A stretch of DNA of 64,000 nt from an uncultured bacterium (GTDB lineage Bacteria > Patescibacteriota > Minisyncoccia > Phycocordibacterales > PALSA-1337): positions 4,419 through 68,418 of the forward strand of contig CAWKEA010000006.1 in assembly GCA_963848635.1 (NCBI GenBank). The letters run 5' to 3'. The position numbers and the translations under genes were made by a program. The notes beneath the pieces are model-generated. The model saw only the letters and a program-made list of their open reading frames with translations, did no database searches and was not told where the DNA came from. Each line of letters opens with the position of its first letter. Position 1 is the stretch's first letter. This document shows positions 34,031 through 50,602 of this stretch, piece after piece.

Positions 34031-34370
34031 CCAAATCCATTCACTACACAACACCTGCGATTACTTCAATGGTGTTTTTTATTCCTCTTATTTAACAACT
34101 CTGTCCGAGAACTCATATTTTACATAACCCTCCCCGGTAAGAATCAACAAAGCCTCGAACTCTTCGACAAAAGAAAAACCGCCCTAGTGAGCGGTTTTCT
34201 TAAATTTGTTACTTAACACAAGTTTGGTGACCCTAGTTGTCGACGGTTGGAAACAAATGATTAAGGAAATAACGACTTGGAGTAAGTTCAGAAACACAAG
34301 AGATGATAATGTACAATAAAAATTGACATATCTGCTAAATAATAATATATTAATAAAAATCAGTTCCTGG

Positions 34371-35443
34371 CACCTCAACCCCTCAATTTGAACGCTCAAT
34401 ATTTCGATTAAGACGCGCCGCTAGGCGCTGTTTTTGTCTCTTTTCTTTCTCGTATGCTTCATCCGGAGTGAGCGAATTCAATACTCCCATAAATCTCCTG
34501 TTCATCTTCTCCTCTAGCTTTTTGATGAATTCCCTGGAATATTTGGAGATGTCGGATCCTTTTGGAATATATCGCCGCAAACTTTTGTTCAGTTGCTCGA
34601 TTGAAGGCTTCTCCCAAGGGGAATGCTCGTGGCAGAAGTAGATCTTGATTGAGAGTACTTTCTCCAGTCTCTTGTGTTCCAGAAGAAGAAGGTCGTTGTC
34701 GAAAGTGATCGTTTGCATCTCCGGATATCGATTCTTCATGCGTACAAGTGCTCGCTCTACGTTTCTGACGGACACCGGCAAAATCTTTTCCAGGAGATTC
34801 TTTCTTACCTTCCTGTCTCGAAGCCCCAAGACCATTCCTTTTCCGGATTTCCCCGAGACTATGAAGTCTCCCTCGAAGTGACCTAATCCCCAACGCATGT
34901 TGATTTTCATGGGTCTTTTGTCGATCATGCGCTTGTCCTTCAAGCGTTTGCGGCTTCCTTTGCGTCTCTTTCTCTTTCCGAATATCTTCTTCCTGTGAGA
35001 TTCAATCTTTCTTCCGTACGGACTCCGGATATATCTTCTCACGGCCGAGCCGGAGACATACGGCAGGCCCTTCTCGACGTTCTTCAATCTTCTAGCGATT
35101 TCCTCCGGCTCCTGGTCGTCCATGAGATGATACTCGACGAACGCGCGGAGGTCCGGATTGGAGGCGATCTTCTTACCTTCCTTTCTCTTGGCTCTCATGC
35201 GTACGCGCGAGATGTGTCGAGCATATTCCGCGTCGTACTTCCTGCCTTTCCTGCGCTTCTGGAGTTCGTACCAGATACCGCTCTTGGGACGTTTGAAGGT
35301 CTTGGCTATGTCCGATATCGAATGACCTTTCTCTATGAGTATCTCGATGTCTCTGCGGTCCGCGCACGAAAATCGCGACCATTTTCTGTTTTTTTCATGT
35401 GCTAATCATACACGAATCGTTCAAATCTCAAAGACAAATCACC
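34371..35443 (-). mobile_element. IS30-family-like insertion sequence (diverged copy), inserted between the R promoter and the R-ORF start codon
   Basis: Present in R copy A and absent from the otherwise identical R copy B, which is the empty site. CCTGG is duplicated at the junctions. Imperfect terminal repeats contain ATTTGAACG. Confidence 0.8.
34383..35398 (-). CDS. IS30-family transposase (diverged), with the same ATG-A7/-1-frame architecture
   Basis: Same signatures as the other IS30 transposase (GDFIVSGKSG, TFDNDLLL, HSPWEKPSIEQLNKSLRRYIPKGSDIS), at roughly 45% identity by eye. The upstream in-frame HTH (DRRDIEILIEKGHSISDIAKTF) lies in the -1 frame relative to the ATG at 35398, which is followed by A7. 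Confidence 0.75.
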
Positions 35444-35451
35444 CCTGGGGA

Positions 35452-35784: not shown

Positions 35785-36008
35785 AAGATCCACTCAGACA
35801 AAATTCAATATTTTCGACAGACATTGCTGTCTGTCGTTTTTTACCCATTTGTGACCCTATTTAAGGAAAATCTTGAATTTTTGAAGCTCTATCTGAACCA
35901 GGCTTTTTGACGGCGTAATCGCCTTGTGGACGTCGCTCTACAAATAATCTTTTTGGTTTACTCATATACTAGAAGCGTATCACCTAAAACAGATATTAAC
36001 AATGAAAA

Positions 36009-38285: not shown

Positions 38286-38529
38286 CTAATTTTTTTAGCT
38301 CATGCTGATTACTCAGACTATCTTCAATATTATCGCTATCAGTCTTACGATAGAGAATTCTTATGAAATTTCTTAAAAATGATATTCTATCTACAGAAAA
38401 TTTCCACGGGTTAATATCAAAAAATTCGAATGAAGGGTCAAGCTCCTTTAGATACTTCTTTAGATCATTTAGAAAATGGGTCTTGCCTTCACCCCATTTA
38501 CCAGATATGCCAAAAATAAATGAGCCATC
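38286..38529 (-). pseudogene. KAP NTPase N-terminal Walker A segment, out of frame with the main body
   Basis: The minus strand encodes ...FGISGKWGEGKTHFLNDLKKYLKEL..., a GxxGxGKT P-loop. ATG at 38529 is in the +1 frame relative to it; a T5 to T6 change would fuse them as MAHLFFGISGKWGEGKT. A second 1-nt shift separates it from the ORF starting at 38285. Confidence 0.5.
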
Positions 38530-38691
38530 TTCCTTTTGATGTCTTCAAGCTAAGGTCTTTCCGATCTCTTTTATAAATGGGGTTCGATTATCCACAGAAC
38601 ATAATTTAACCAAAAAAATTATGTTCTGTCTATCTTATCAACTAAAATATTTCTTACTTCCTAACCGAAGAAAGTACAGTCCCATATACGG

Positions 38692-39438
38692 TCATGATAC
38701 ACCAGAAATTTCTAAAGAGCTTATAATCCTCCCCTCCTTTTCATGATCTAGTTTATAAGGAATCGAATCCTCTTCAAAACCAAACATCCTATAAATCGGC
38801 TGTATTATTTCATAAGTGATCTTTCCAAGAGCGGCGCGGTCATCTTTGAATTGAGTTGTGTCAAAAGAGAGAGTAAACTCATTTTCGCCCCCTTTCCAAT
38901 ATGCTTTACGAGTATTAATTTTCATAGGTCTTATATCTCCATTGACTAAATAATGCTTATCTTTTTGTAACCCAGCAAAACCTACCAGACATTCGACTGT
39001 GGGCCCTGGATTCTTGATATCTTTTAGAACCCTATTGAAAGCTATGACTGTATTAAAAGTAAACTCGATAAGGGCAAGCGGGTGTATCCGTGATTGATTT
39101 GTCTCAGCCAAAGCCTCTCCGGCACCCCAACAGAGAAAGTTTGAGATGAGTGCTCCTTGGACGATCAGAGTGCCATTATCTTTCACCTGGATCCTCTTGA
39201 AGTTATTTTCCGACTCGATACCGTGCAGATTGATTTGATAGCCGCCAGGCATTTCAAGATCCCATCCATGATGACGCAAGCGAAACGCTTTCTCGAAATC
39301 AGACTTCAAGCTGCCTGGTTCGTTTGAGAATAGCGTCTTCACAATATTAGAGTTAGAGCCTTGAGCGGCTTTTACAGAAAAGACCATGTAATAGAATGGT
39401 TCTGGAAAGACTGTTCCTTTTAGAGGTAGCGTACTCAT
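38692..39438 (-). CDS. hypothetical protein (248 aa), middle gene of the putative defence-like operon
   Basis: Intact ORF; no motif recognised. Confidence 0.55.
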   Translation of the reverse strand: MSTLPLKGTVFPEPFYYMVFSVKAAQGSNSNIVKTLFSNEPGSLKSDFEKAFRLRHHGWDLEMPGGYQINLHGIESENNFKRIQVKDNGTLIVQGALISNFLCWGAGEALAETNQSRIHPLALIEFTFNTVIAFNRVLKDIKNPGPTVECLVGFAGLQKDKHYLVNGDIRPMKINTRKAYWKGGENEFTLSFDTTQFKDDRAALGKITYEIIQPIYRMFGFEEDSIPYKLDHEKEGRIISSLEISGVS

Positions 39439-39483
39439 AAATATTTTTTGTAGTCCTTTATGTTACCGAATCTATCATACTCT

Positions 39484-40095
39484 TCAAATATCTTTTTCGT
39501 AGACTGGCCTGTCTGCTCTGATCAGCACGTCCAACTTGCCGTCCATTGAAACAAGGTGACTTTCGTAGTGCTGGCCTCGCCGGAGAGTTTCGTGGATCTG
39601 CTCGATGTGTGTGGCAGTGCCATGCTCCCCCGTCCTTGAATAATAGGCGAGATAGTCCAAGTTGTCTCTGCTGAGTTTCACCAGATATGGTCTGTCTCCG
39701 AGATCTTGGGGTATTTCGATATACAGCACATCTTTGCCATCTAAAATGCCGTATCGAATGTCGAATCTGACCTTGGGGTATACGTGATTTTCCAGATGCT
39801 GAGTGATTGTTTGTAAGTTTATTTTTGCCTTGTCAACACCCACCACATGATCAATTATTTTGTGAGGGCTGTTAGGCGCAGGTGTCTCAGCAATGCCAAC
39901 TATGATAAAGCCACCTCGTCCGTTCGCAAAGGCGCTGACATCCTTGCATAGTTCCCTCTGCTCTTTTTCAGAGCCGAGATCGTATAGCCGCTCTTTTACA
40001 TCAAGAATGGCGTTCTCGAGCTTTCCTTTGACGACCGAAAAATCTCCGGACTTGAGCATTTTCTGAAGATCATTGTATGTGTAGGAGTGTTCCAT
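39484..40095 (-). CDS. AlbA_2 / Schlafen-like ATP-dependent DNA-binding domain protein
   Basis: The segment VVKGKLENAILDVKERLYDLGSEKEQRELCKDVSAFANGRGGFIIVGIAE matches the AlbA_2 pattern (E..K......AFaN..GG.i.iGv.d). Confidence 0.55.
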   Translation of the reverse strand: MEHSYTYNDLQKMLKSGDFSVVKGKLENAILDVKERLYDLGSEKEQRELCKDVSAFANGRGGFIIVGIAETPAPNSPHKIIDHVVGVDKAKINLQTITQHLENHVYPKVRFDIRYGILDGKDVLYIEIPQDLGDRPYLVKLSRDNLDYLAYYSRTGEHGTATHIEQIHETLRRGQHYESHLVSMDGKLDVLIRADRPVYEKDI

Positions 40096-40283
40096 AATTT
40101 CATTTTGGACACTATTTTACCACACTTTTTTGTCTTTTTAACCTAAAATTGGGCCGACACAGCCGATCTAGAAAACGGCTCTAAACCGTTGTTCCAGAAT
40201 CCTCAGTTCGAGACCCGGAAGGGTGCTCGATTACCGGGCAAAAAATTTGGCTTAAAATAAGGGCAACTGAGTCGGCCTTGAGT

Positions 40284-40864
40284 GTGACCCTAGTTGTCGA
40301 CGGTTGGAAACAAATGATTAAGGAAATAACGACTTGGAGTAAGTTCAGAAACACAAGAGATGATAATGTACAATAAAAATTGACATATCTGCTAAATAAT
40401 AATATATTAATAAAAATCAGTTCCTGGGGAATGAAAGGACCCCAATATATGGACCGTAAACAAAGAGAAAAGGAAATGCGTGAGATGTATCCGAAACAGT
40501 TCAACCATCCAGAAATAAGGCCGGGTGAAATCTGGCTGGGGGATCAGATCTTTGATTTGGCCATTGCACATCAAATGATATATTCGACAAATGGTTTGCC
40601 AAACACCAGGCTCGGGAATCCTTCGCTGAGGGAACGCGAGGGGTGCGGCGATTTCAAGTTTGACTATCGTCCCCTGTTTGCAGACCTGCAAGAAGTCCTG
40701 GCACTCGAAGAAAAGAGTGCTCAGGAAAAAAAGCAAGGACAAGAAATGCCTGGTTCAAGCTAGAAGATCCACTCAGACAAAATTCAATATTTTCGACAGA
40801 CATTGCTGTCTGTCGTTTTTTACCCATTTGTGACCCTATTTAAGGAAAATCTTGAATTTTTGAA
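40284..40864 (+). repeat. 581-bp direct repeat R, copy B (uninterrupted; empty site for the IS30-like insertion)
   Basis: Identical to copy A minus the IS. It begins TGTGACCCTAGTTGTCGACGGTTGGAAAC and contains the promoter at 40380..40408 (TTGACA-N17-TATATT). Confidence 0.85.
40431..40763 (+). CDS. hypothetical 110-aa protein encoded in repeat R (copy B)
   Basis: Identical to 35452..35784. ATG lies 23 nt after the -10 element. Confidence 0.45.
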   Translation: MKGPQYMDRKQREKEMREMYPKQFNHPEIRPGEIWLGDQIFDLAIAHQMIYSTNGLPNTRLGNPSLREREGCGDFKFDYRPLFADLQEVLALEEKSAQEKKQGQEMPGSS

Positions 40865-40926
40865 TGAAACATTTGGAAACGCAAAGCTAGAGTCTCAACA
40901 TCCTAGAAAGGATTAACAAGTTGGCA

Positions 40927-41475
40927 CTAATTCAAAACGACACGTAATTTCGGCCACTTTTTTAGCCAATTCTTACTTTTAACTCTAGTATAAAAAATCC
41001 CAAGGTTTTCTCTATGACTAGGACTAGGTCTGACTATCAAATTAACAAGGTCGCTAATTCCGTGTGGTGCAATTATTTTAGGCTCTCCGTCTACCAGGGT
41101 TACTGCCACACAAGTAGGTGTTTCTACCCACTCTGATAGTGCATCAGATGTATTTTTATATGGCATTTTTCTGCTATGCCACTTGTGGGTATATGATTGA
41201 TTCACGATTTCCCAACTTAATCCCAGTACACCTTTCATTTTGCCTGAAAGCTTCTTGTCAGATTCTTCTGTGTTTTTTTCATCAAAATAAACCAGATCAA
41301 TATCATTGGTGTCGGCTATTTCTCTTTTTATATTGTGAAGCTTGTCCCAGACTTTATTCCTTAAAAAACCTGCTCCGATCATCCAGTCTGGCAAGTTAAG
41401 CTTGTCTGCTTCATAAAGGACATTCATCATCCACCTGTCTTCTTTAATCATTAGAATCAAATCAATTTCATTCAT
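40927..41475 (-). CDS. nucleotidyltransferase-fold protein (NTP_transf_6/DUF925-like)
   Basis: MIGAGFLRNKVWDKLH...TNDIDLVYFD has a GxGxxRN...DIDLVYFD pattern characteristic of that minimal nucleotidyltransferase family. Confidence 0.5.
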   Translation of the reverse strand: MNEIDLILMIKEDRWMMNVLYEADKLNLPDWMIGAGFLRNKVWDKLHNIKREIADTNDIDLVYFDEKNTEESDKKLSGKMKGVLGLSWEIVNQSYTHKWHSRKMPYKNTSDALSEWVETPTCVAVTLVDGEPKIIAPHGISDLVNLIVRPSPSHRENLGIFYTRVKSKNWLKKWPKLRVVLN

Positions 41476-41548
41476 ATTTAAAGTATAACAGAATTCTGAA
41501 CACCAGTGAGGTATACTGAAAAAACAATATTGTTAGCCTGGAAAAACC

Positions 41549-41620
41549 TGTGACCCTAATTAGAGCTGATTGGAACTAGTTGATCAAGGAGATGATACTT
41601 TGGCAAGAGTTTAGGGCTCG
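41549..41620 (+). repeat. third copy (diverged, ~65%) of the R 5'-end motif TGTGACCCTA...GGAACTAGTTGAT...
   Basis: ctgtgaccctaattagagctgattggaactagttgatcaaggagatgatactttggcaag aligns with the first ~70 nt of R. Confidence 0.5.
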
Positions 41621-41624
41621 GTTG

Positions 41625-42140
41625 TTAAATAACTCTTATAATCCCATTATCCGCATCTACTTCAATTTGATCTCCTGTCGTAAGGATTTTAGAGGCAAAT
41701 TTAGTGCTTATTATGCAGGGCTTGTTCATCTCTCGAGCAACAATAGCCGCATGACATGTGATACCGCCTTCATCTGTGATAAACGCTATCGCATCAGAAA
41801 AATAGGCGGCTAATTCAGGACGTGTCATGGGGGTTACAAGAATATAATTTTTCTCATCGCCCAAGACTTTTTTCGCGCTCGGATAATCCTCCTCTGACAA
41901 AACAACAACTCGACCGGATGCTTTGCCTTTATGAGCGGTCTTACCCTTGATAAAGCCCAGTTTTCTAGCCTCCTCAATATTTTCTATTTCCCTATCCTGC
42001 TGGTGTAAAAAATCAGCAATCGGTCTAACTAAATCATCGGTCAAAATAGAAAGTTTGTTATCGATCAGGACAAAGGCTACGGGACGGTTTTTAATTGCAA
42101 ATTTAATAACCGATTGATTGCCTTTGAGCAACTCGACCAA
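41625..42140 (-). pseudogene. 3' fragment of a PEP-utilizing enzyme (mobile phosphohistidine domain only)
   Basis: GGITCHAAIVAREMNKPCI is the PEP-utilizers signature. The N-terminal ATP-grasp / PPDK_N part is absent. The fragment abuts the R-end-like motif. Confidence 0.6.
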
Positions 42141-42925: not shown

Positions 42926-43108
42926 TTACTGATTTCGGCGAAAAAATCTCTTAATCCTGCCGATAAGGCGATCCAAGGCATCAGGATTTTCGGCTGCTTT
43001 CCGGCGTTGCTCTTGTTCTTGCTCAATCAAGGCGTTATATGCCTCGGGATGCCTCCGAGCCAAAGCACCTCTCTCATACTCTTGTTGATCTAAGGGGTGA
43101 GTAAACAT
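42926..43108 (-). CDS. small charged helical protein (60 aa)
   Basis: The ORF is followed by a strong terminator. It sits at the head of the aaRS-paralog cluster but is divergently oriented. Confidence 0.35.
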   Translation of the reverse strand: MFTHPLDQQEYERGALARRHPEAYNALIEQEQEQRRKAAENPDALDRLIGRIKRFFRRNQ

Positions 43109-43201
43109 ATCAATCCCTCCTTTCTGAAAAGAATCTTAACACACATTTGCCGAGTATCACAATAGATTTTATTTGATGTCATTTAGCAGTATAATGGTAT
43201 T

Positions 43202-44320
43202 ATGATCGACAAATTTTTTGAAGACGAATTAAAGCTTGCAACAGATGATGCGAATGTGTTTACTTCGCTCAATAGTCAACATATTCTTCGACCACCTTCA
43301 TACGATCCGAATAGATATATTGATGATTTGGTCAACAATAAATATTTTGCTGCCCTTACAATTTTAAGACACCACATTAAGCGCGCGAGTGACGAATATT
43401 GGTCAGGTGTCGGGGCAAAAAATATTGATTTGTTCATGATGACACCCAGCGCATCTTCCCCTATGGGGCCTGGATCTGATTCTGAAGTCATAACTATTCA
43501 ATTTGGAGATAACAAGACCAATCTTACCGACTCATCTCAATTCGGATTTGAGCCACTTATGTTTCATTTTGATAAAGTTTACTGCTACCTTCCATCAATG
43601 CGTGGAGAAAATCCGGATGCAAGACACCTCAATCAATTTTTTCATTGCGAAGCAGAAATTGTTGGTACTCTAGAAGTTTTACTACCAATCGTTGAGGGCT
43701 ATGTGCGCGCCCTTTCTCAAATACTGATTGCCCTCACACCAATAGTTAAGCTTATGAGTATTGACTTTGATAAGACAAATTCTACATTACAATCTATTAT
43801 TTCTTCAAATTCTTTTCAGAGAAAAACTTTTGATGAGGTGTATCCCTGGCTGCAACAAAATCCATCTTTTTACACGAAGAATGATTTTGGCAGAAATATC
43901 ACAAATTCCGGAGAGATAGCACTTGCGGAACATAATGGTGAAGGATTACCTATGTGGCTATGCTCTTATGACAGAGATATTGTGCCATTTTATCAAAAAC
44001 CAAATCCTGCTGATCCAAACATAGTTATTAACGCGGACTTATTATTTAATCCGATCGTTAAAGGAGGTTTTGGCGGCGAAATCGTTGGTTCTGGACAGCG
44101 TCAAAACATACCCGAGGAAATAGTTGAATCCATGGGTAGACAACAGGTTGGGATTGAGCCATACGAGTGGTACATAAACTTGCGCAAGTATCCACATTAC
44201 AAAATTACGTCAGGATTCGGACTTGGTATCGAGCGTTTTATAGCCTGGGCACTTGGATATCCAGATATTAAAGATGTAATTCATTATCCACGACTTAAAA
44301 ATATTAAAACATTACCTTAA
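43202..44320 (+). CDS. class II aminoacyl-tRNA synthetase catalytic-core paralog, AsnA/AsnRS-AspRS-like (no anticodon-binding domain)
   Basis: PSMRGENPDARHLNQFFHCEAEI is a class IIb motif 2 (compare AspRS [20 protein letters not shown]). ESMGRQQ...EPYEWYINLRKYPHYKITSGFGLGIERFIAWALG contains motif 3 GLGIER and parallels E. coli AsnA SSMGIRVD...GGGIGQSRL. 372 aa is catalytic-domain size. Confidence 0.7.
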   Translation: MIDKFFEDELKLATDDANVFTSLNSQHILRPPSYDPNRYIDDLVNNKYFAALTILRHHIKRASDEYWSGVGAKNIDLFMMTPSASSPMGPGSDSEVITIQFGDNKTNLTDSSQFGFEPLMFHFDKVYCYLPSMRGENPDARHLNQFFHCEAEIVGTLEVLLPIVEGYVRALSQILIALTPIVKLMSIDFDKTNSTLQSIISSNSFQRKTFDEVYPWLQQNPSFYTKNDFGRNITNSGEIALAEHNGEGLPMWLCSYDRDIVPFYQKPNPADPNIVINADLLFNPIVKGGFGGEIVGSGQRQNIPEEIVESMGRQQVGIEPYEWYINLRKYPHYKITSGFGLGIERFIAWALGYPDIKDVIHYPRLKNIKTLP

Positions 44321-44337
44321 TATGAAAAAAGAAATAT

Positions 44338-45167
44338 TTGACTCATTTTTTAATCCCTACTCAAAAAACGGTTGACGATGTCGCTACTGTGAGTGCGTTT
44401 TGGAGATTATCAGACGAGATTATTACAAAAATAATTCAACAGGAAATTGCACCGTACTGCACGAATGAATCGTTGATAATGGATGCTGGCGGAGGGACTG
44501 GTCGTTGGGCAGTAAAGTTAAGTAAATTCTTGAAAGGTAAAATTGTGGTCTTTGATCGTTCAAAGGATATGCTCGCCAAGGCGCGGGAAAATATCGAACA
44601 TGGAGGTGCTTCTGACCGAATCAATATTGTTGAGGGAGATTTAACAAACATTGAGCATTTCAAGAATGAAAGCGTTGATCATATTGTAAGTATCTACAGT
44701 CCCCTGAGTTTTATCTACGAACAAACAAAGGCAGCCCAAGAAATGCTTCGTATTTTGAAGCCGGGTGGTCGAATACTTATTATGAGTCATGGGCATTTCA
44801 ACGCAATAGCATCAAAAATAAACAACTACAAAGCTAGTTTGAAAGAGCTGAAAAATCTTTTGGATACACGAATGGTCAAATGGGCACCGCCATGTCCCCA
44901 GAACTAGTAACTCATTCTAAAGAATCCATTGAGAAACTATTTTCGGGTGTCGGCTTTCAAATTATCAAAACATACGGTGTTCCTGTGTTTGTTCAACCCG
45001 GAAACGAAGACTTTGATCCAAACAATAGAAAGAAGAGTGGGATAAGTGAATACATAGAGGATACTGATAATTTTGCATCAATACTCGAGCTCGAAATGAA
45101 GTATAACTCTTTAGACGCGGTTGCTAATCGCGGCATGAATATTTTTATGTTAGCCGAGAAGAAATAA
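44338..45167 (+). CDS. class I SAM-dependent methyltransferase, frameshifted in an A5 run (~44851-44855)
   Basis: Motif I MDAGGGTGRWAVKL; post-II ILKPGGRILIMSHG. The C-terminal part continues in the -1 frame (44880..45167); one extra A in GCTGAAAAATC joins the two. Confidence 0.7.
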
Positions 45168-45171
45168 TCCT

Positions 45172-46068
45172 ATGAAAATATCAACACTTACACAAAAATA
45201 TCCATGGCTTAAACATGAGAATTCCATAGAAGAATATTTACCACCGGAATACTATAAACAACTACTTCGCCAATATACATTTAATGGAGCTTCTGATCTT
45301 CAATTACTTGAAAATTTCCTAAAAAATAAAACAGCTTCAAATATCTTAGAACTTGGTTGTGGAAGTGGTAGAGCCTCAAACATTGCCGTCTCTCTTATCC
45401 CGCGAGCTGCATACACTTTTTCTGATTTAAGTGAACGCATGCTTGATACCGCGAAGAAACACTTACCTCCCAAATCATCTTTTGTTATAGCTGACGCTAT
45501 TGAATTTATGGAGAGGACAAATGAGCAATATGATTTAATATATACACTTTGGAGCTTCTCACATTCTACTCATCAACATATACATCGTCTGGGGATAGAA
45601 AATGCGAGACATTACATCTCTTCAGTAATTAAAAAATTCGTTAAGGAAAATATAAGACCCGGTGGCTCATTCTTCTTGATTCATTTTGATTCACTTTCTG
45701 ATGAGCAACGTATTCTTATGTCCCAGTGGAAACGTATATTTCCGGCATTTACAAACACCGAACAGCAGAGTCCTTCAAAACAAATTATCGATCATGTCCT
45801 GTTAGATCTCGATAACAATGATACGATAACTCTGTCTATTGATCATATGCATGGTGATCCTATTGTCTATGCAACAGAAAATGATATGCTGGAAACATTC
45901 ATGAATTTTCATTTAGAGACTTACTTTAATACCTCGCCTGCTGTTGCTGATATCGTAGAGGATATTAGGTCTCAGGCTGAAAGATATCGGAACATAGACG
46001 CTTCGTATGCAATCACTCCCGGATGCTATATGTATTCATTTATTAAAAATCAACAGACAAAGTTATGA
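45172..46068 (+). CDS. class I SAM-dependent methyltransferase
   Basis: ILELGCGSGRAS (motif I) and DLIYTLWSFSH. Confidence 0.75.
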   Translation: MKISTLTQKYPWLKHENSIEEYLPPEYYKQLLRQYTFNGASDLQLLENFLKNKTASNILELGCGSGRASNIAVSLIPRAAYTFSDLSERMLDTAKKHLPPKSSFVIADAIEFMERTNEQYDLIYTLWSFSHSTHQHIHRLGIENARHYISSVIKKFVKENIRPGGSFFLIHFDSLSDEQRILMSQWKRIFPAFTNTEQQSPSKQIIDHVLLDLDNNDTITLSIDHMHGDPIVYATENDMLETFMNFHLETYFNTSPAVADIVEDIRSQAERYRNIDASYAITPGCYMYSFIKNQQTKL

Positions 46069-47105
46069 AAAATATGGAGAAACTGAAAAAATTACAAAAA
46101 AGAGATAAAGTCGCGGTACTCTCACCGTCATTTGCAGCACCTGGACGATTTCCTCACGTATTTGAGCTTGGTTTGAATCGTATACGCAGAGTGTTTGAAT
46201 TGGAGCCAGTGGAATATCCCACGACGAGGAAATTAGGCGCCAGTGCTGAGGAGCGAACACGCGACCTTATAGCCGCCTTCGAGGATCCGGAAATAAAAGC
46301 GGTCATTGCTAGTATTGGTGGAGATGACCAAGTTACATACATATACAAAATGTCTCCAGATCCATTTGTAAATAATCCGAAACCATTCCTTGGATACAGC
46401 GATAATTCACATTTCTGTAATTTTCTATTTCAACATAACATTCCATCATATTATGGAGCATGCGTAATGACGCAGTTTGCAATGCAAAAAGAAATGGATA
46501 AATATACAACGGATCATATCCGCAACGCGCTATTTGATACGGGTGAACATGAAATCTTACCTTCATCAGAATACAATGAGGTAGGTCTCGATTGGAGCGA
46601 TTCTTCACTTCTTACTACCCGACGCATCTATGAACCAAATACCGGATGGGTATGGGATACACCATCTGATGGAGAAGGTATTTTATGGGGTGGTTGTCTC
46701 GAATCAATTGATGACATGCTCCGAAACAACGTCCCAATTCCTAATCTTGATGAATTCGGGAACATCATCCTTTTATTCGAGACATCAGAAGAAGTGCCAT
46801 CGCATGGGTATGTGCAACGAGTTATCCGATCTCTAGGTGAACGAGGAATTTTGCAGAAAATTCGAGGTGTGCTTGTTGGTCGACCAAAAGCCTGGGAATT
46901 TGATAAACCATTCACCAAAGAAGAACGAACAGCGTATGTGAAGAGTCAACAAGAAGTCATCCTTGAAGCAGTGAGATTGTATAACAAAAACATACCAATC
47001 GTACAAAACATGAATTTTGGTCATACCGACCCACAGATACCGATGCCATATGGAGGGAGAGCAAGAATCGACTCAAATAATAAGAAAGTATTTGTCTGTT
47101 TTTAG
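46065..47105 (+). CDS. peptidase S66 family LD-carboxypeptidase (LdcA/MccF-like)
   Basis: VAVLSPSFA...AVIASIGGDD...GYSDNSHF (nucleophile Ser in GYSD) and the overall 346-aa size fit S66. Overlaps the upstream methyltransferase gene by 4 nt. Confidence 0.8.
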   Translation: MKNMEKLKKLQKRDKVAVLSPSFAAPGRFPHVFELGLNRIRRVFELEPVEYPTTRKLGASAEERTRDLIAAFEDPEIKAVIASIGGDDQVTYIYKMSPDPFVNNPKPFLGYSDNSHFCNFLFQHNIPSYYGACVMTQFAMQKEMDKYTTDHIRNALFDTGEHEILPSSEYNEVGLDWSDSSLLTTRRIYEPNTGWVWDTPSDGEGILWGGCLESIDDMLRNNVPIPNLDEFGNIILLFETSEEVPSHGYVQRVIRSLGERGILQKIRGVLVGRPKAWEFDKPFTKEERTAYVKSQQEVILEAVRLYNKNIPIVQNMNFGHTDPQIPMPYGGRARIDSNNKKVFVCF

Positions 47106-47107
47106 AA

Positions 47108-47140
47108 AAAAAGGCCGGAGGATTTTCAAATCCTCCGGCC
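47108..47140. terminator. bidirectional hairpin terminator between convergent genes
   Basis: AAAAAGGCCGGAGGATTTtcaAATCCTCCGGCCTC. Confidence 0.6.
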
Positions 47141-48298
47141 TCAGCAATCACTGTCGTGGAATAGTTTTTGCATTAGTTCCGAACCTATTCCAGAGGTAAC
47201 CATCGCTTCACGCCTATTGCCAAGCAGTTTTGCGGTCCAATCGACAGCACCACCATCCGCAACCTGAACCACATCACCTTTTTTATTTGTGGCAAAGATA
47301 TGGAAGCATAGGTGCGGATAATAACCCAGGCCCGCTTTTCTATTGAAGTCAAAGCAAAATCGGACTCCCGAGTTAGCAGTGCGAAGCGGCTCTATGATTC
47401 CTTTCTCGATGTGTGAAAAGTACTTGACTCGATTAATGAGACCGTTATTCTCGAACATTGCTTGATTCAGCTCACTCGCGCCTTCAACCTCTTTTGGAAA
47501 TTGCACCTGGTACTTCGTAAACAGATCGAAGTCGTCGTTGAGAGAATTTCGCAAGATATCTTCGCGAGGAAGTTTAATCCCGTCTATCAACTGATCAAGG
47601 AACTGCATATCGGAAATCTTGACAGTTATATTAGACGATCCGTATCCCTCTCTTTGCAGAACGAAGATCGCGTTTAACAACATTGCAATGTGTTTCTGTA
47701 ACGTAGGAATTGCAAACCCACCATCGGTAGACGTGTTTGGTCCACCAGAGCAAAGTGCGAAGAGGTTAAAATGTTGCATATACCCCTTACTCTTGTCGAA
47801 CGGCTGCAATCGCAGAACACGACCTGATGTGCTGATGTGTACAGCACTGTCATCTTTTAGAGCAATGCTTCGTTTTCTCCTCAACGCGCATTCGAGCGCG
47901 AGCTGGCTTGTTAAATCACTCACAACCTCCAATCCTCGTATCGAGGAAAGAGTGTTGTTTTGACTAATCATGCTCAGTATTGCGTTGAGTCCAAAAGGCG
48001 CGACAGGAGAAGTTTGGACGGCTTCAAATGTCGAACTTACAGCCTCGTGGCATTTGAGAGCAAACCTGTAGAGATTAGCTTGGGCAATCTGGCTAATCCC
48101 GAGGAACTCTTGCTTTCTTTCATACTCCTGCAGTAGCTCTGTGGGCTTTCTGGCTTTCGCCCGATTTTTGAACACATGCACCAAAACAGGTTGAAGACGA
48201 CGCATTGGTGCTATTGACAGAATCTCAAGGAGGTTGGGAATGCCAAGCTCCTCGGAGATGCTTCGTAGCATTTTTTCTTCCGAACTCTCGGGTTTCAT
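47141..48298 (-). CDS. HisRS/HisZ-like class II aaRS catalytic-core paralog
   Basis: SGRVLRLQPFDKSKGYMQHFNLF parallels HisRS motif 2 (FRYERPQKGRYRQFHQFG). DGGAVDWTAKLLGNRREAMVTSGIGSELM parallels the GGRYDGL...PAVGFAMGLERL region. 385 aa, about the size of HisZ; no anticodon-binding domain. Confidence 0.5.
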   Translation of the reverse strand: MKPESSEEKMLRSISEELGIPNLLEILSIAPMRRLQPVLVHVFKNRAKARKPTELLQEYERKQEFLGISQIAQANLYRFALKCHEAVSSTFEAVQTSPVAPFGLNAILSMISQNNTLSSIRGLEVVSDLTSQLALECALRRKRSIALKDDSAVHISTSGRVLRLQPFDKSKGYMQHFNLFALCSGGPNTSTDGGFAIPTLQKHIAMLLNAIFVLQREGYGSSNITVKISDMQFLDQLIDGIKLPREDILRNSLNDDFDLFTKYQVQFPKEVEGASELNQAMFENNGLINRVKYFSHIEKGIIEPLRTANSGVRFCFDFNRKAGLGYYPHLCFHIFATNKKGDVVQVADGGAVDWTAKLLGNRREAMVTSGIGSELMQKLFHDSDC

Positions 48299-48343
48299 TT
48301 TGACCTCCTATTTGTTTTGTTAAGGAACGGCTTCAAGACCACC

Positions 48344-49440
48344 GGCAACTAGAACTTAAGTTTTAATAATTCTCGAGGAATATTTTGATATAATTTGCAC
48401 ATGAAAAAAAGAAACAAAAAAGACTCACAAATTGTGACCGTCATGAGATTCATATATTAATCAGAAAGGGATATACTCAAAGTGAGATTGCTGACAGAAT
48501 TGGAGTAACACAAGGTGCGATCTCATATGAAATCAATCAGAAGACAAGAGATGATCGTTTGTACGATTCAGAATACTCAAGACACGTCACATACGTTCGT
48601 AAGCATCACAAACGTACTCGTGGCAATACGATTGCAGAACACCCAGATCTTCGAAAGACAGTAACCGAATATCTAATGGACGACCAATCACCAGAACTGC
48701 TCTCTGGAAGGCTTAGAAAGCTTCATGCAGATATTCCATACGTATCAGGCAGAACGATCCGTAAATTCATCAAAAGTCCATATGGAAGAAGAATCGAAGC
48801 AAAGAGAAACAAAATCCACAGAAGAAGAGGTAAAAGAAGGTTGAAATTTGAAATCACTAACAAACGTATGATCGACAAAAGACCAAAGTATATCAAGGAC
48901 AGAAAGAGAATCGGTGATACCGAGGGTGACTTCATTGCTTCAGGTAAAACTGGTCTGGGTATGCTTCTAGTTGTAACTGACAGAAAGAGTCGTGCACCAT
49001 TCCTTGAGAAGATATGTCCTGTATCAATCAGGACGATGGAAAATGGTTTCAGAAGAATCAAAAGACGTTTTCCTGAGTTAAAAACAGTAACTCTCGACAA
49101 TGATATCTTGTTCATCCACCACAAAGAGCTCGAGAGGAAATTCCATATCAAAATCTACTTCTGTCACAAGCACTCACCTTGGGAAAAACCACTAGTGGAG
49201 AACAGAAACAAACTGATTAGAAGATACATTCCTAAAGGATCTGACATTTCAAGATATACACGCTATTACATTCAAAAATTGGAAGCAAAATTGCAGAGAC
49301 GCATCATGAAATGTTTAGACTACAAATTACCCAAGGAAATACTCGAAGAACATCGTAAACGAAAAAAGAAGCCCTAATCGCTTCCTTTCTGTTAGATTTT
49401 CCTTCTTAGAAAAATATTAAAACGTGGGGTGTGGGTGCCA
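48344..49440 (+). mobile_element. IS30-family insertion sequence, copy 2 (identical to 11974..13070)
   Basis: 100% identical over 1097 bp with different flanks. Same orientation as copy 1. Confidence 0.85.
48401..49377 (+). CDS. IS30-family transposase (copy 2; same ATG-A7 architecture)
   Basis: Identical to 12031..13007. Confidence 0.8.
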
Positions 49441-49498
49441 CCTTGAAACTGAGTATATCTATAGCACAAATACATCTTTTTGTACAGAGTCAGATGGG

Positions 49499-50343
49499 GG
49501 GTAATATATACCAGTTGTCCCATATAAATTACAATATGGACACCATGTACACATACAACCAAATACCAAGCGAAGCACAGATCCGTAAATACATCCGTCG
49601 CATCTTGTTCGGAAAGAACGTCTTCTGCCCGAAATGCAGGTCGAGACGGATAAATGTCCAAGGAGGCAGGTACCGGTGCAAGGATTGCAGGACTCGGTTC
49701 ACCCTCTTGTCACACACATGGCTCTCGAACTTGAAGCTACCGCTCCAGACGTGGTGGATGGTGCTCTGGAGCTGGTCATGTGCAGTACCGGTAAAACAAA
49801 CGTGCGCACTTACAGGACTCTCAACGGTCTCGGTGTACAAGTGGTTTGATACCTTCCGGGGACATCTGCCGGAAGAATCCCATATTTTGGAGCGTATAGT
49901 GCAGCTAGACGAGGCATACTTCAAGAACATGACTCTGATCATGGCCAAGCAAAAAGGCACCAGGAATCTGGCCTACGACGTCATCATGGGCACAGCCGTG
50001 CAAAAGCATCATGCCGGATATTTCTTGTTCAGGAAGGTGAAACCCGGTTCCAAGCTCTGGACTGATGGCGCTGCGATTTACAAGAAAATCGACAAGTGGT
50101 GGCCCGTCAAGCATTCAAGGGACATCCACAAGAAATTCGAGTTCGCGCATACCTCGGAGATCGAGGGAGTGTTCGGAAACTACCGTACTTTCGCAAGAAG
50201 AATGTATCACCACCATCAATCGAAAAATCTGGAGAAATATGTGAGGGAATTTTGCTTCAGATTTTCCTCACCAGAATTATTCAAAAACCCTTTGTTTTAC
50301 TTAACAAAATCATTAAAGCTTGGGACAACTTGTTAATATTACC
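49499..50343 (+). mobile_element. IS1595-family-like insertion sequence with 23-bp inverted repeats and 9-bp target-site duplication
   Basis: IRL GGTAATATATACCAGTTGTCCCA (49500..49522) pairs with IRR TGGGACAACTTGTTAATATTACC (50321..50343). The flanking direct repeat TCAGATGGG occurs at 49490..49498 and 50344..50352. Confidence 0.8.
49536..50336 (+). CDS. IS1595-family transposase (N-terminal zinc ribbon plus DDE)
   Basis: CPKCRSRRINVQGGRYRCKDCRTRFT is a zinc ribbon, followed by a DDE_Tnp_IS1595-like core (QLDEAYF...). The start is taken at Met after the IRL; the track ORF starts at 49431. Confidence 0.7.
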   Translation: MDTMYTYNQIPSEAQIRKYIRRILFGKNVFCPKCRSRRINVQGGRYRCKDCRTRFTLLSHTWLSNLKLPLQTWWMVLWSWSCAVPVKQTCALTGLSTVSVYKWFDTFRGHLPEESHILERIVQLDEAYFKNMTLIMAKQKGTRNLAYDVIMGTAVQKHHAGYFLFRKVKPGSKLWTDGAAIYKKIDKWWPVKHSRDIHKKFEFAHTSEIEGVFGNYRTFARRMYHHHQSKNLEKYVREFCFRFSSPELFKNPLFYLTKSLKLGTTC

Positions 50344-50527: not shown

Positions 50528-50602
50528 TGGTGACCTTACCGGGAGTCGAACCCGGATTACAGCCTTGAGAAGGCCGTGTCCTAACCATTAGACGATAAGG
50601 CC
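50528..50602 (-). tRNA. tRNA-Glu (anticodon CTC), CCA encoded
   Basis: Minus strand: GGCCTTA acceptor, D-arm GTCT-AATGGTTA-GGAC, anticodon stem CGGCC/GGCTG with loop TTCTCAA, T-arm CCGGG-TTCGACT-CCCGG, then TAAGGTC-A-CCA. Its 3' end faces the AT-rich island. Confidence 0.8.

What the first reader, a model, noticed from the sequence alone, without database searches (positions are those of the whole stretch)
43202..48298. Compact cluster of two aaRS catalytic-core paralogs, two methyltransferases and an MccF-like peptidase in an IS-bounded AT-rich island
Five adjacent genes, in order: an AsnA/AsnRS-AspRS-like class IIb catalytic domain (motif 2 RGENPDARHLNQFFHCEAEI, motif 3 GFGLGIER); two class I SAM methyltransferases; an S66 LD-carboxypeptidase of the LdcA/MccF type; and, convergently, a HisRS/HisZ-like class II core (~385 aa). 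All are about 35-45% GC versus about 50-58% for neighbouring housekeeping genes. The segment sits beside an IS30 copy, an IS1595 element and a tRNA gene, so horizontal acquisition is likely. Stand-alone aaRS catalytic paralogs act as amino-acid ligases via aminoacyl-adenylates (AsnA; HisZ pairs with a short HisG in ATP phosphoribosyltransferase). MccF-type S66 enzymes hydrolyse aminoacyl-adenylate mimics (processed microcin C, aminoacyl-sulfamoyl adenosines) as self-immunity. The co-occurrence therefore suggests a pathway that builds or detoxifies a methylated aminoacyl-nucleotide or aminoacyl-conjugate antimetabolite. I do not recall a described cluster with this exact composition. No hisG and no obvious exporter is visible in the window. 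The S66 peptidase could simply be housekeeping LdcA, and the AsnA-like gene could simply supply asparagine.
Basis: partly seen in the sequence, partly recalled or inferred. Interest (0 to 1): 0.8.

Follow-up and report, generated by a model that had tools for sequence, protein, structure and literature searches.

The report
Conserved mobile aaRS-paralog metabolite cassette
Five adjacent genes (two stripped-down relatives of tRNA-charging enzymes, two methyltransferases and a hydrolase of the microcin-C-immunity type) recur as one mobile unit in dozens of ultra-small bacteria, some archaea and Bacillus plasmids, and most likely make, and protect their owner from, an undescribed amino-acid-derived antimetabolite.

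Summary
Window 43202-48298 holds an AsnRS-derived catalytic core (A), two class I SAM methyltransferases (MT1, MT2), an S66 hydrolase closer to MccF-type enzymes than to LdcA, and a convergent 385-aa protein (H) with a HisRS/HisZ fold. H is recognisable only by structure. None of them is an ordinary AsnA, HisZ or LdcA orthologue.

The same five families co-occur in 29 of 35 dereplicated loci with enough flank, in at least six gene orders. Hosts include CPR bacteria, a Micrarchaeota archaeon and Bacillus. No other neighbour is conserved. H, MT2 and S66 form the invariant core.

Firmicute versions, one on a B. pseudomycoides plasmid, add a second full-length GluRS, an MFS pump, an ATP-grasp ligase, an aminotransferase, a QueC-like enzyme and a tandem array of tRNA-like genes with 6-nt anticodon loops containing UUC. 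This resembles ascamycin's AcmF/AcmD/AcmE logic.

Best reading (confidence about 0.45): a small-molecule cassette that transfers an activated amino acid, with S66 for immunity or maturation. The product is unknown.

In this window the cassette is foreign: 40% GC against 50-52%, with an IS30 insertion 45 bp upstream of H. The MT1 "frameshift" is at least partly an assembly error. No description was found in the searchable literature.

The parts
43176..43203 (+). Promoter-like site (ATGTCA-16 nt-TATTAT with TG) ending at the A start codon; possible leaderless start. Weak evidence.
   Evidence: Consensus scan. The number of such sites in the region equals the shuffle expectation, so this is only a candidate.
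43202..44320 (+). A: 372-aa AsnRS-derived class IIb catalytic core without the anticodon-binding domain. Predicted amino-acid (Asp/Asn-type) adenylating ligase.
   Evidence: Pfam tRNA-synt_2 6.6e-24. Below the AsnRS and AsnA curated cutoffs. Aligns to AsnRS 125-432. Motif 2 R134/E136/H142/F146/E150/E152, E293/R300 and motif 3 G338/G340/G342/E344/R345 are >=95% conserved in 38 cassette copies.
44322..45167 (+). MT1: UbiE-like class I SAM methyltransferase (280 aa in intact orthologues). In the window it reads as three frame pieces (44322-44366, 44338-44907, 44880-45167).
   Evidence: Methyltransf_25 3.7e-19. Frameshifts mapped against L010. The two extra C's at ~44891 and ~44899 are absent from the otherwise identical independent assembly L157.
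45172..46068 (+). MT2: 298-aa cassette-specific SAM methyltransferase. Its fold is closest to carboxyl O-methyltransferases. Part of the invariant core.
   Evidence: Methyltransf_25/12. Weak BioC/Tam hits. Only 207 homologues in 5.8 billion clusters. About 60 residues >=95% conserved. Model pLDDT 94.8; top folds are Tam, HvrF, JHAMT, BioC and LahSb.
46065..47105 (+). S66: 346-aa MccF-type serine hydrolase. Predicted to cleave an aminoacyl/peptidyl amide of the product (immunity or maturation). Part of the invariant core.
   Evidence: Peptidase_S66 + S66C. Best PDB relatives are BA3275 (2e-50) and MccF proteins. Ser112, acidic 239, His320 and Trp177 are present in 53/53 cassette copies.
47111..47142 (-). 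14-bp GC-rich hairpin followed by a T-run on the minus strand, between the convergent stops of S66 and H. Intrinsic terminator of H; the hairpin would also form in the operon transcript.
47141..48298 (-). H: 385-aa member of a discrete, undescribed family with a HisRS/HisZ class II core fold, no anticodon-binding domain and no motif 3 arginine. Predicted aminoacyl-transferase or scaffold. Part of the invariant core.
   Evidence: AGGAGG RBS 5 nt upstream of the ATG.
48344..49439 (+). IS30-family insertion sequence (transposase 48559-49377) with 3-bp target duplication ACC (48341-48343 / 49440-49442), inserted 45 bp upstream of the H start codon. An identical copy lies at 11974-13069 (duplication ATA).
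   Evidence: The empty site is seen in L010.
49443..49498 (.). Remnant of the native region upstream of H, displaced by the IS. Homology to L010 resumes here and ends at 49498.
49431..50336 (+). IS1595-type transposase ORF at the right edge of the island.
   Evidence: Pfam DDE_Tnp_IS1595 4.9e-14 plus Zn_ribbon_IS1595. NCBIfam 69 bits, just under the cutoff of 75.
50528..50602 (-). tRNA-Glu(CTC) at the island/backbone junction. A likely integration landmark; a functional link is not shown.
   Evidence: GC rises to 0.50-0.59 immediately beyond it.
34383..35198 (-). Second, different IS30-family transposase gene (51% identical, inverted) at the left edge of the low-GC island.

Best explanation
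The five genes form a self-contained, horizontally mobile cassette for a small, methylated, amino-acid-derived metabolite, most likely an antimetabolite of translation of the aminoacyl-nucleoside/nucleotide kind. Proposed steps, all inferred unless marked. (1) An amino acid is activated. In the CPR-type cassette, as in this window, A does this; it is an AsnRS-derived core that keeps every adenylation motif (shown by sequence) but has no tRNA-anticodon domain. In Firmicute versions a cluster-encoded full-length GluRS charges a cluster-encoded array of tRNA-like RNAs with 6-nt anticodon loops. (2) H, a HisRS/HisZ-fold protein lacking the motif 3 arginine, does not adenylate. Instead it binds the activated aminoacyl donor and transfers it to an acceptor, like AcmF in ascamycin synthesis. 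Alternatively it acts as a HisZ-like obligate partner of MT2, to which it is often translationally coupled. (3) MT2 methylates a carboxylate to give a methyl ester, and MT1 adds a second, less constrained methyl group. (4) The MccF-type S66 hydrolase cleaves the aminoacyl amide. This either destroys product inside the producer (immunity, as MccF does) or removes a protective group (maturation). In this genome the cassette arrived by horizontal transfer, and an IS30 element now separates H from its native upstream region.
For: A functional unit. All five families are present in 29 of 35 dereplicated loci with >=4.5 kb of room. S66 lies within 300 bp of H in 48 of 58 loci. At least six gene orders occur, with no other conserved neighbour. 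Hosts include CPR lineages, Micrarchaeota and Bacillus.

Not housekeeping. All proteins score far below the AsnRS, AsnA, HisZ/HisS and LdcA cutoffs. The H and MT2 families are small and cassette-specific.

Active enzymes. Catalytic motifs of A, the S66 triad and an invariant Trp177 are conserved. Trp177 lies 65 residues after the nucleophile; MccF Trp186, 68 residues after Ser118, stacks on adenine.

H. HisRS/HisZ fold with Leu375 at the motif 3 Arg311 position and GGRYD changed to DGGAVD.

MT2. Nearest folds are carboxyl O-methyltransferases.

Antimetabolite logic in expanded versions. These carry a second full-length GluRS (313 bits, cutoff 290), an MFS efflux pump, an L-amino-acid-ligase-type ATP-grasp, a PLP aminotransferase and a QueC-like PP-loop enzyme. 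They also carry 2-4 tandem tRNA-like genes (Rfam tRNA 50-52 bits) with 6-nt loops containing UUC, two compensatory stem changes, their own promoter and terminator, and an encoded CCA in some copies. Elsewhere the cassette sits near GNAT, NUDIX, NT5C and HIT genes.

Precedent. In ascamycin synthesis AcmF is a truncated class II aaRS-like aa-tRNA-dependent transferase, AcmD is an extra aaRS for supply and self-resistance, and AcmE is a hydrolase (PMC12945691).

Operon structure and terminator. Mobility.
Against: No product, substrate or activity is known for any member. The CPR-type cassette, including the window, has no exporter, no extra aaRS and no tRNA-like array, so extrapolating from the Firmicute versions is an inference. 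The NUDIX, NT5C, HIT and GNAT associations each rest on one to three loci. No gene for making a nucleoside or sulfamate acceptor is evident. H could be a regulatory subunit rather than a transferase: the hhalign match that places Leu375 on Arg311 is weak (E 0.017) and covers only 63 columns, and motif 2 was mapped by eye. The Trp177/Trp186 equivalence rests on spacing, not on a superposition. The closest solved S66 relative (BA3275) has no known substrate. MT fold neighbours have TM of only ~0.6.
Confidence: 0.45

Rival explanations
1. Resistance or detoxification cassette only. The genes neutralise an exogenous aminoacyl-nucleotide or peptide antibiotic made by neighbours or hosts. S66 hydrolyses it, the methyltransferases cap fragments, and the aaRS-like cores bind or re-route them.
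For: Stand-alone MccF homologues are widespread and protective (PMC8323819). The CPR-type cassette has no exporter. Co-located GNAT, HIT and NUDIX genes are classic detoxifiers. A reduced H+S66 form exists (L109-type).
Against: A keeps a complete adenylation site. The expanded versions add anabolic enzymes (ATP-grasp ligase, aminotransferase, QueC-like), an efflux pump, a second GluRS and a tRNA-like array. These make sense for synthesis, not for degradation.
Confidence: 0.15
2. Macromolecule modification. The truncated aaRS paralogs aminoacylate a tRNA nucleoside or a translation factor, as GluQ-RS does on tRNA-Asp queuosine and EpmA/PoxA on EF-P. The methyltransferases finish the modification and S66 reverses it.
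For: Established precedent for anticodon-domain-less aaRS paralogs (general knowledge of GluQ-RS and EpmA). MT1 has weak similarity to CmoM and other tRNA/protein methyltransferases. tRNA genes often adjoin the A end of the cassette.
Against: The distribution is patchy and mobile: IS-flanked, on a plasmid, and with foreign GC. It is linked with MFS efflux, an L-amino-acid ligase and an extra GluRS. There is no conserved linkage to translation genes. The adjacent tRNAs are of many isotypes, as expected for island integration sites.
Confidence: 0.12
3. Synthesis and turnover of a benign methylated amino-acid amide or dipeptide, such as a compatible solute or storage/signalling compound. A and/or H act as ligases and S66 is the catabolic peptidase.
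For: AsnA-type chemistry gives amides. Two methyltransferases recall osmolyte pathways (general knowledge). The absence of an exporter or resistance gene in CPR versions is compatible.
Against: The second GluRS, dedicated tRNA-like array, efflux pump and GNAT in other versions point to toxicity and self-protection. The S66 clade is MccF-like with the invariant Trp.
Confidence: 0.12
4. Coincidental adjacency of ordinary housekeeping genes: AsnA for asparagine, HisZ for histidine regulation and LdcA for murein recycling.
For: Domain families superficially match.
Against: All score far below the orthologue cutoffs. No hisG or his genes are present. The set is conserved in 29 of 35 loci across phyla and in several gene orders. 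GC is foreign.
Confidence: 0.02

Closest known systems
Ascamycin acmD/acmE/acmF module (Streptomyces sp. 80H647; PMC12945691)
   Same: A truncated class II aaRS-like protein lacking canonical activation residues (AcmF, compare H). An additional full-length aaRS in the cluster supplies aa-tRNA and confers self-resistance (AcmD, compare the cluster GluRS in L003/L077/L158). A hydrolase removes the aminoacyl group (AcmE, compare S66). The product is an aminoacyl-adenylate mimic.
   Different: H has a HisRS/HisZ fold, not an AlaRS fold. The hydrolase is an S66 enzyme, not an alpha/beta-hydrolase. No sulfamoyl-nucleoside genes are seen. The CPR-type cassette has no extra aaRS but has the AsnRS-derived core A. 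Two methyltransferases are integral. The Firmicute versions also encode their own non-standard tRNA-like array.
Microcin C immunity peptidase MccF and its stand-alone homologues (S66)
   Same: S66 fold, Ser-His-acid triad, an extended loop with an invariant Trp at the spacing of adenine-stacking Trp186, and greater sequence similarity to MccF-type structures than to LdcA.
   Different: No MccA precursor peptide and no MccB (ThiF-like) adenylyltransferase. The nearest solved relative is the uncharacterised BA3275, not MccF itself. The substrate is untested.
HisZ, regulatory subunit of hetero-octameric ATP phosphoribosyltransferase
   Same: HisRS-like catalytic-core fold without the anticodon-binding domain and of similar length. 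HisZ is the top structural match (3od1). It is non-canonical as an aminoacylation enzyme.
   Different: No hit to HisZ or HisS models, only 12-16% identity, and never next to hisG or his genes. It forms its own family of ~1,800 cluster representatives. Its constant partners are MT2 and S66.
AsnRS and archaeal-type asparagine synthetase A (AsnRS-derived, tRNA-independent)
   Same: A is a class IIb core with AsnRS-like pocket residues (Glu117 where AsnRS has Glu225; no AspRS-type Lys; Arg300) and lacks the anticodon-binding domain, as archaeal AsnA does.
   Different: It scores 123 bits against the AsnA cutoff of 322 and 155 against the AsnRS cutoff of 342.6. It has a distinct ~45-residue N-terminus and always sits in the cassette. 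The Bacillus sp. Leaf75 copy is nearer AsnA (288 bits).
Self-protected aminoacyl/peptidyl-nucleoside pathways (puromycin pur cluster; PMC11641026)
   Same: A similar mix of accessory functions appears in some cassette versions: methyltransferases, GNAT acetyltransferase, NUDIX and phosphatases, aminotransferase, MFS exporter, a deprotecting hydrolase, and in cst-like clusters a tRNA gene.
   Different: The coupling enzyme Pur6 is unrelated to aaRSs. No homologous genes are shared. The accessory associations here are sporadic.

Membership tests
HisZ (ATP-PRT regulatory subunit) | HisRS-like catalytic-core fold lacking the anticodon-binding domain | tested here: met
   Model pLDDT 91.9. Foldseek top hit is HisZ 3od1 at 3.8e-16. 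The 385 aa are covered by the core alone.
HisZ (ATP-PRT regulatory subunit) | Recognised by curated HisZ/HisS sequence models | tested here: not met
   No NCBIfam family at E<=0.01. Pfam tRNA-synt_His gives 18.4 bits, below the cutoff of 25, over residues 282-366 only.
HisZ (ATP-PRT regulatory subunit) | Genomic and functional partnership with short HisG / the his operon | tested here: not met
   In 58 dereplicated loci the only recurrent neighbours are A, MT1, MT2 and S66. No dedicated HisG profile was run.
Canonical HisRS | C-terminal anticodon-binding domain and motif 3 arginine (E. coli Arg311) | tested here: not met
   The protein ends with the core. hhalign places the invariant Leu375 at Arg311 and DGGAVD at GGRYD. 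The alignment is weak (E 0.017) (reference sequence verified against 1KMM).
AsnRS | N-terminal OB-fold anticodon-binding domain; score above the curated cutoff | tested here: not met
   Aligns only to AsnRS residues ~125-432. TIGR00457 gives 154.9 bits against a cutoff of 342.6.
AsnRS / class IIb aaRS catalytic core | Motifs 2 and 3 and the Mg/ATP-binding acidic residues | tested here: met
   R134, E136, H142, F146, E150, E152, E293, R300, G338, G340, G342, E344 and R345 are >=95% conserved in 38 copies.
Archaeal-type asparagine synthetase A | Score above the curated equivalog cutoff | tested here: not met
   NF005053 gives 123.1 bits against a cutoff of 322 for the window protein. The Bacillus sp. 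Leaf75 copy gives 288.5.
MccF-type S66 hydrolase | S66 two-domain fold with Ser-His-Glu triad | tested here: met
   Pfam S66 + S66C. Ser112 53/53, Glu/Asp239 53/53 and His320 53/53.
MccF-type S66 hydrolase | Loop insertion carrying the nucleobase-stacking Trp (E. coli Trp186) | tested here: inconclusive
   Trp177 is invariant (53/53) and lies 65 residues after the nucleophile, against 68 in MccF. No structural superposition was done.
MccF-type S66 hydrolase | Hydrolysis of aminoacyl-/peptidyl-nucleotide amides | not testable with these tools
   Needs an enzyme assay.
Microcin C (mcc) cluster | MccA precursor peptide and MccB ThiF-like adenylyltransferase | tested here: not met
   No such neighbour in 58 loci. 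A small-ORF search upstream of A found only an XRE regulator.
LdcA (murein tetrapeptide LD-carboxypeptidase) | Score above the curated equivalog cutoff | tested here: not met
   NF008424 gives 46.5 bits against a cutoff of 378. PDB murein carboxypeptidases score 2e-18 to 1e-4 against 2e-50 for BA3275.
Ascamycin-type aaRS-paralog module | Truncated class II aaRS-like protein with a degenerate activation site | tested here: inconclusive
   H lacks the motif 3 Arg and the HisB Arg/Tyr, but keeps a motif 2-like Arg160/Arg163, Phe177 and the GLGYY motif. Transferase activity is untested.
Ascamycin-type aaRS-paralog module | Additional full-length aaRS inside the cluster | tested here: not met
   Absent from the window and all CPR-type loci. 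Present (GluRS) in L003/L074, L077 and L158 only.
Known anti-phage defence systems (PADLOC) | Match of signature proteins to defence-system models | tested here: not met
   A, S66 and H give no hit. The methyltransferases match only generic methyltransferase models.

The most novel reading that the evidence does not exclude
The cassette is the first recognised antibiotic-type biosynthetic module typical of ultra-small CPR bacteria and DPANN archaea. It would make a methylated aminoacyl-nucleotide-like inhibitor of an aminoacyl-tRNA synthetase by a peptide-independent route built from aaRS paralogs: A as activator, and the new HisRS-fold family H as an AcmF-like transferase. An MccF-type hydrolase would give immunity. 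In Firmicutes the same core is fed by a natural orthogonal pair, a divergent GluRS plus tRNA-like RNAs whose 6-nt anticodon loops keep them out of translation.
Probability: 0.25. Interest if true: 0.9.

Novelty: new variant of a known kind. Interest (0 to 1): 0.75.

Why it matters
CPR bacteria and DPANN archaea are thought to have almost no secondary metabolism. A conserved, mobile five-gene cassette that plausibly makes a translation-targeting antimetabolite would bear on how these episymbionts compete with, or manipulate, their hosts.

The work defines a new family of HisRS-fold proteins (about 1,800 cluster representatives) with no known function, and a cassette-specific methyltransferase.

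The Firmicute versions point to a natural dedicated GluRS / non-decoding tRNA pair. That is of interest for aa-tRNA-dependent natural-product chemistry and for engineering orthogonal translation parts. No natural GluRS-directed inhibitor is known to me (my own recollection, not checked), so the product could be a new antibiotic scaffold.

Versions exist in cultured strains: Bacillus pseudomycoides 219298 (on a plasmid) and Bacillus sp. Leaf75. The hypothesis can therefore be tested directly.

Tried and rejected
1. Ordinary AsnA/HisZ/LdcA orthology was rejected by curated cutoffs.
2. A known anti-phage defence system was considered because the island also carries KAP NTPase and Schlafen/AlbA_2 genes. 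PADLOC gave no match for A, S66 or H.
3. A microcin-C-like RiPP was ruled out. There is no precursor peptide or MccB. The small-ORF search found only a facultative XRE regulator, in 11 loci and not in the window or L010.
4. Phage carriage: no hit among 50,697 phage records.
5. I looked for functional clues in the distant H-like clade (28-36% identity; Acidobacteriota, Devosia, Kaistia, Trueperaceae). It has no A, MT or S66 partners and no consistent neighbour; I saw a fatty-acid desaturase, a radical SAM enzyme and regulators.
6. PDB sequence matches of the methyltransferases are generic.
7. Pur6 of puromycin as a homologue: it is unrelated to aaRSs.
8. MT1 as a pseudogene: the downstream frameshift is contradicted by the independent assembly L157. 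The upstream +1 in an A-run could not be checked.
9. Isotyping the tRNA-like genes by BLAST against E. coli genomes gave no match.
10. No HisRS gene was present in the fetched DNA, so the E. coli HisRS sequence was written from memory and verified against 1KMM.
11. Eight literature searches found no description of this gene combination.

Full report

- **A (43202-44320, 372 aa).** It matches Pfam tRNA-synt_2 (E 6.6e-24). It aligns to residues ~125-432 of Thermus and Pyrococcus AsnRS. It is therefore a class IIb catalytic core without the N-terminal anticodon-binding domain.
- **MT1 and MT2.** Both are class I SAM methyltransferases.
- **S66 (46065-47105, 346 aa).** It has both S66 domains.
- **H (47141-48298, minus strand, 385 aa).** By sequence it is barely HisRS-like: PF13393 at 18.4 bits (below the cutoff of 25), no NCBIfam hit and no PDB sequence hit. 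An AlphaFold model built from 53 family members is confident (pLDDT 91.9, pTM 0.91). It matches HisZ and HisRS cores at Foldseek E ~1e-16, TM 0.55-0.58 and 12-16% identity.

None of the proteins is an ordinary orthologue (all):

| Protein | Curated model | Score (bits) | Cutoff (bits) |
|---|---|---|---|
| A | AsnRS | 155 | 342.6 |
| A | archaeal AsnA | 123 | 322 |
| S66 | LdcA | 46.5 | 378 |
| H | any family | no hit | - |

By PDB sequence comparison, S66 is nearest B. anthracis BA3275 (2e-50) and MccF proteins (2.5e-24 to 6e-16). Murein carboxypeptidases score 2e-18 to 1e-4.

**Local anatomy.** A, MT1, MT2 and S66 are separated by 1 nt, 4 nt and a 4-nt overlap, so they form an operon. A 14-bp GC-rich hairpin with a T-run (47142 to 47111, minus strand) lies between the convergent stops of S66 and H. 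H has an AGGAGG ribosome-binding site.

MT1 appears broken into three frame pieces relative to the intact 280-aa orthologue of L010. L157 is an independent short-read assembly. It is identical to window 44678-47068 apart from exactly the two extra C's that cause the downstream shift (0 mismatches, 2 gaps). That shift is therefore very probably an assembly error. The +1 in an A-run near 44366 could not be checked. At worst it would move the start to the TTG at 44338.

**Foreign origin in this genome.** The cassette is 40% GC, against 50-52% for the murF/ftsI-type flank. In the genomes of its closest relatives the cassette's GC matches the flanks, for example 0.40 against 0.42 in L010.

The window is collinear with L010 at 87% nucleotide identity over 43164-48341. 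Homology resumes at 49438-49498. The intervening 1,096 bp is an IS30-family element (156 bits, cutoff 80) with a 3-bp target duplication (ACC). It is identical to a second copy at 11974-13069 (duplication ATA). It sits 45 bp upstream of the H start codon.

The wider low-GC island (~34.2-50.4 kb) is bracketed on the left by a different IS30-family gene (51% identical, inverted). On the right lie an IS1595-type gene and tRNA-Glu(CTC).

**Conservation.** H homologues (148) and A homologues share contigs. Direct inspection was combined with a genome scan (62 loci) and a metagenome scan (80 loci). The loci were then mapped with profiles built from confirmed members. This gave 86 loci in which H is at least ~39% identical to the window's H, or 58 loci after dereplication.

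Of the 35 loci with at least 4.5 kb of room:

| Families present | Loci |
|---|---|
| All five (A, MT1, MT2, S66, H) | 29 |
| H + MT2 + S66 | 3 |
| H + S66 | 2 |
| All except MT2 | 1 |

S66 is within 300 bp of H in 48 of 58 loci. In 10 loci MT2 sits directly upstream of H, usually overlapping it.

At least six gene orders occur, and no other neighbour is conserved. Hosts named in record titles include Parcubacteria, Uhrbacteria, Paceibacteria, Saccharibacteria-labelled MAGs and a Micrarchaeota archaeon. That archaeal locus has GatD next door.

Cultured hosts are Bacillus sp. Leaf75 and B. pseudomycoides 219298, where the cluster is on a 140-kb plasmid.

The H profile reaches only 1,818 cluster representatives among 1.84 billion, so H is a discrete family. 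A distant H-like clade (28-36% identity) lacks all four partners and has no consistent neighbour.

**Are the proteins active?**

- **A:** across 38 copies, motif 2 (R134, E136, H142, F146, E150, E152), E293/R300 and motif 3 (G338, G340, G342, E344, R345) are >=95% conserved. The pocket is AsnRS-like: Glu117 is present and there is no AspRS-type lysine.
- **S66:** all 53 copies have Ser112, an acidic residue at 239, His320 and Trp177. In E. coli MccF, Trp186 stacks on the adenine of processed microcin C and lies 68 residues after the catalytic Ser118 (PMC8323819). Here the spacing is 65.
- **MT2:** about 60 residues are >=95% conserved and the family has only 207 members. Its model (pLDDT 94.8) is closest to carboxyl O-methyltransferases: Tam, HvrF, JHAMT, BioC and LahSb.
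- **MT1:** only the SAM motif is conserved.
- **H:** hhalign against E. coli HisRS (sequence verified against 1KMM) aligns H 311-374 with HisRS 248-310. The GLxYY motif is kept. GGRYD becomes DGGAVD. The invariant Leu375 falls on motif 3 Arg311 (weak, E 0.017, but consistent). H is therefore unlikely to be a canonical adenylating enzyme.

**Clues from expanded versions.** Bacillus sp. Leaf75 has, in order: a PP-loop QueC-like gene, a PLP aminotransferase, S66, MT1, A, an L-amino-acid-ligase-type ATP-grasp, a full-length GluRS (313 bits, cutoff 290), MT2, H and an MFS pump.

L077 and the B. pseudomycoides plasmid keep all of these except A and MT1.

All three also carry tandem tRNA-like genes inside the cluster: 2, 3 and 4 copies respectively. 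Their features are:

- They score 50-52 bits on the Rfam tRNA model (gathering threshold 29).
- They have a 6-nt anticodon loop containing UUC: CUUCUA in one version and CAUUCA in the other.
- They have G1-C72 and a 4-nt variable region.
- Two stem pairs show compensatory changes between lineages. 95% of cells are paired, against 31-57% when partners are slid.
- On the plasmid the array has a TTGACA-17 nt-TATATT promoter and a terminator hairpin, and two copies encode CCA.

Other versions add further genes:

- a PurD-like ATP-grasp, NUDIX, NT5C, a His-phosphatase and HIT (L075)
- a GNAT (L009, L005)
- an Amidohydro_2 protein (L009, L125, L132)
- an XRE regulator upstream of A in 11 loci

**Mechanism.** The closest described logic is ascamycin synthesis (PMC12945691). 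AcmF is a truncated class II AlaRS-like protein that lacks activation residues. It transfers alanine from Ala-tRNA onto a sulfamoyl-nucleoside. AcmD is an extra AlaRS that supplies the Ala-tRNA and confers self-resistance. AcmE hydrolyses the alanyl group.

By analogy, H would be the transferase, or a HisZ-like partner of MT2. The aminoacyl donor would come from A as aa-AMP in the CPR-type cassette, or from the GluRS/tRNA-like pair in Firmicutes. MT2 would form a methyl ester and MT1 would add a second methyl group. S66 would cleave the aminoacyl amide for immunity or maturation.

What is shown: the conserved cassette, the intact catalytic sites, the folds, the accessory repertoire and the tRNA-like arrays. 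What is inferred: every chemical step and the nature of the product. I put this reading at about 0.45. The specific claim of an aaRS-inhibiting aminoacyl-nucleotide mimic is at about 0.25-0.3.

**Rivals.** These are a pure detoxification cassette (0.15), a macromolecule-modification system of the GluQ-RS/EpmA kind (0.12), a benign methylated amide or dipeptide pathway (0.12), and chance adjacency of housekeeping genes (0.02, refuted). PADLOC shows no known defence system, and no phage carries H.

**Novelty.** Eight full-text searches found no description of this cassette, of the H family, or of a GluRS plus 6-nt-loop tRNA array in a gene cluster. The enzyme superfamilies and the overall logic (aaRS paralogs in small-molecule synthesis, MccF-type immunity, an extra aaRS as resistance) are known. 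I therefore rate it a new variant of a known kind rather than categorically new. Interest is high because of its spread in CPR and DPANN genomes, the new protein family, the dedicated tRNA-like/GluRS pair, and the availability of cultured Bacillus hosts.

Noticed in passing
L158 16781-17245 (-); L077 12820-13153 (-); L074 11320-11475 (+): Tandem arrays of 4, 3 and 2 tRNA-like genes lie inside the Firmicute versions of the cluster. They have 6-nt anticodon loops containing UUC (CUUCUA or CAUUCA), compensatory stem changes, and their own promoter and terminator. They sit next to a cluster-encoded divergent GluRS. This may be a natural dedicated (non-decoding) tRNA/aaRS pair.
   Followed up: partly
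L001 13267-13356; L018 15645-15730; L085 7044-7131; L099 6337-6425; L141 4993-5082; L095 5771-5858; L088 15157-15230; L101 15576-15651; L100 9029-9113: In nine CPR loci an ordinary tRNA gene lies 100-700 bp upstream of A on the same strand. It is tRNA-Ser in six (three different anticodons), otherwise Gln, Arg or Leu. These are probably island integration sites, but Ser is over-represented.
   Followed up: no
window 44360-44370 and 44885-44900: Single-base insertions in homopolymer runs (A-run; two C's) break MT1. The two C's are absent from the independent assembly L157, which suggests homopolymer errors in the window's source assembly. Other apparently split genes in this window may have the same cause.
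   Followed up: partly
window 36009-42140: The same low-GC island carries defence-island-type and nucleotide-related genes: KAP-family P-loop NTPase (36009-38285, weak QatA/PifA similarity), an unknown 248-aa gene, Schlafen/AlbA_2 (39484-40095), NTP_transf_6 nucleotidyltransferase (40927-41475) and a stand-alone PEP-utilizers mobile domain (41625-42140). A PEP-utilizers/PPDK_N gene pair also lies upstream of the cassette in the Micrarchaeota locus L007/L024.
   Followed up: partly
window 35444-35885 = 40423-40864; 34227-34370 = 40284-40427: Two further 100%-identical direct repeats (442 and 144 bp) lie inside the island, indicating another recently duplicated mobile or rearranged segment.
   Followed up: no
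window 4539-5366: Five to six tandem copies of a 138-bp unit (88-99% identical) lie inside the 464-aa ORF 4122-5516, which therefore encodes a protein with 46-residue repeats.
   Followed up: no
window 42926-43108 (-) with terminator 42897-42872: A small 60-aa ORF with a strong RBS (AAAGGAGGG) and its own intrinsic terminator lies divergent from A. It is not homologous to the XRE regulator found upstream of A in other loci.
   Followed up: partly
L026, L082-L085, L098-L102, L141 (immediately upstream of A): A 65-71-aa XRE/Cro-type helix-turn-helix protein lies co-oriented directly upstream of A in 11 loci. It is a facultative sixth component, absent from the window and from L010.
   Followed up: yes
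L109-L111, L114, L129; L122; L077/L158: Reduced or altered cassette forms exist: H plus S66 only; a locus with two S66 copies flanking H; and Firmicute clusters lacking A and MT1. H-S66(-MT2) is therefore the minimal unit.
   Followed up: partly
L028-L073, L134-L156 (e.g. Devosia sp. Root413D1 L056, Kaistia granuli L071, Chroococcidiopsis plasmid NC_019699.1): A large distant clade of H-like proteins (~320 aa, lacking roughly residues 233-300) occurs in Acidobacteriota, Devosia, Kaistia, Trueperaceae, Actinomycetes and a cyanobacterial plasmid, without any of the four partners. Its function is unknown.
   Followed up: partly
L158 25336-26643: The B. pseudomycoides plasmid also carries an adenosylhomocysteinase (ahcY) about 4 kb beyond the cluster, across an IS6 element. 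It might support SAH recycling for the cluster's methyltransferase.
   Followed up: no
window 32244-33071: An IS66-family transposase fragment lies just left of the island, adding to the density of mobile elements (IS30 x3, IS1595, IS66) in this window.
   Followed up: no
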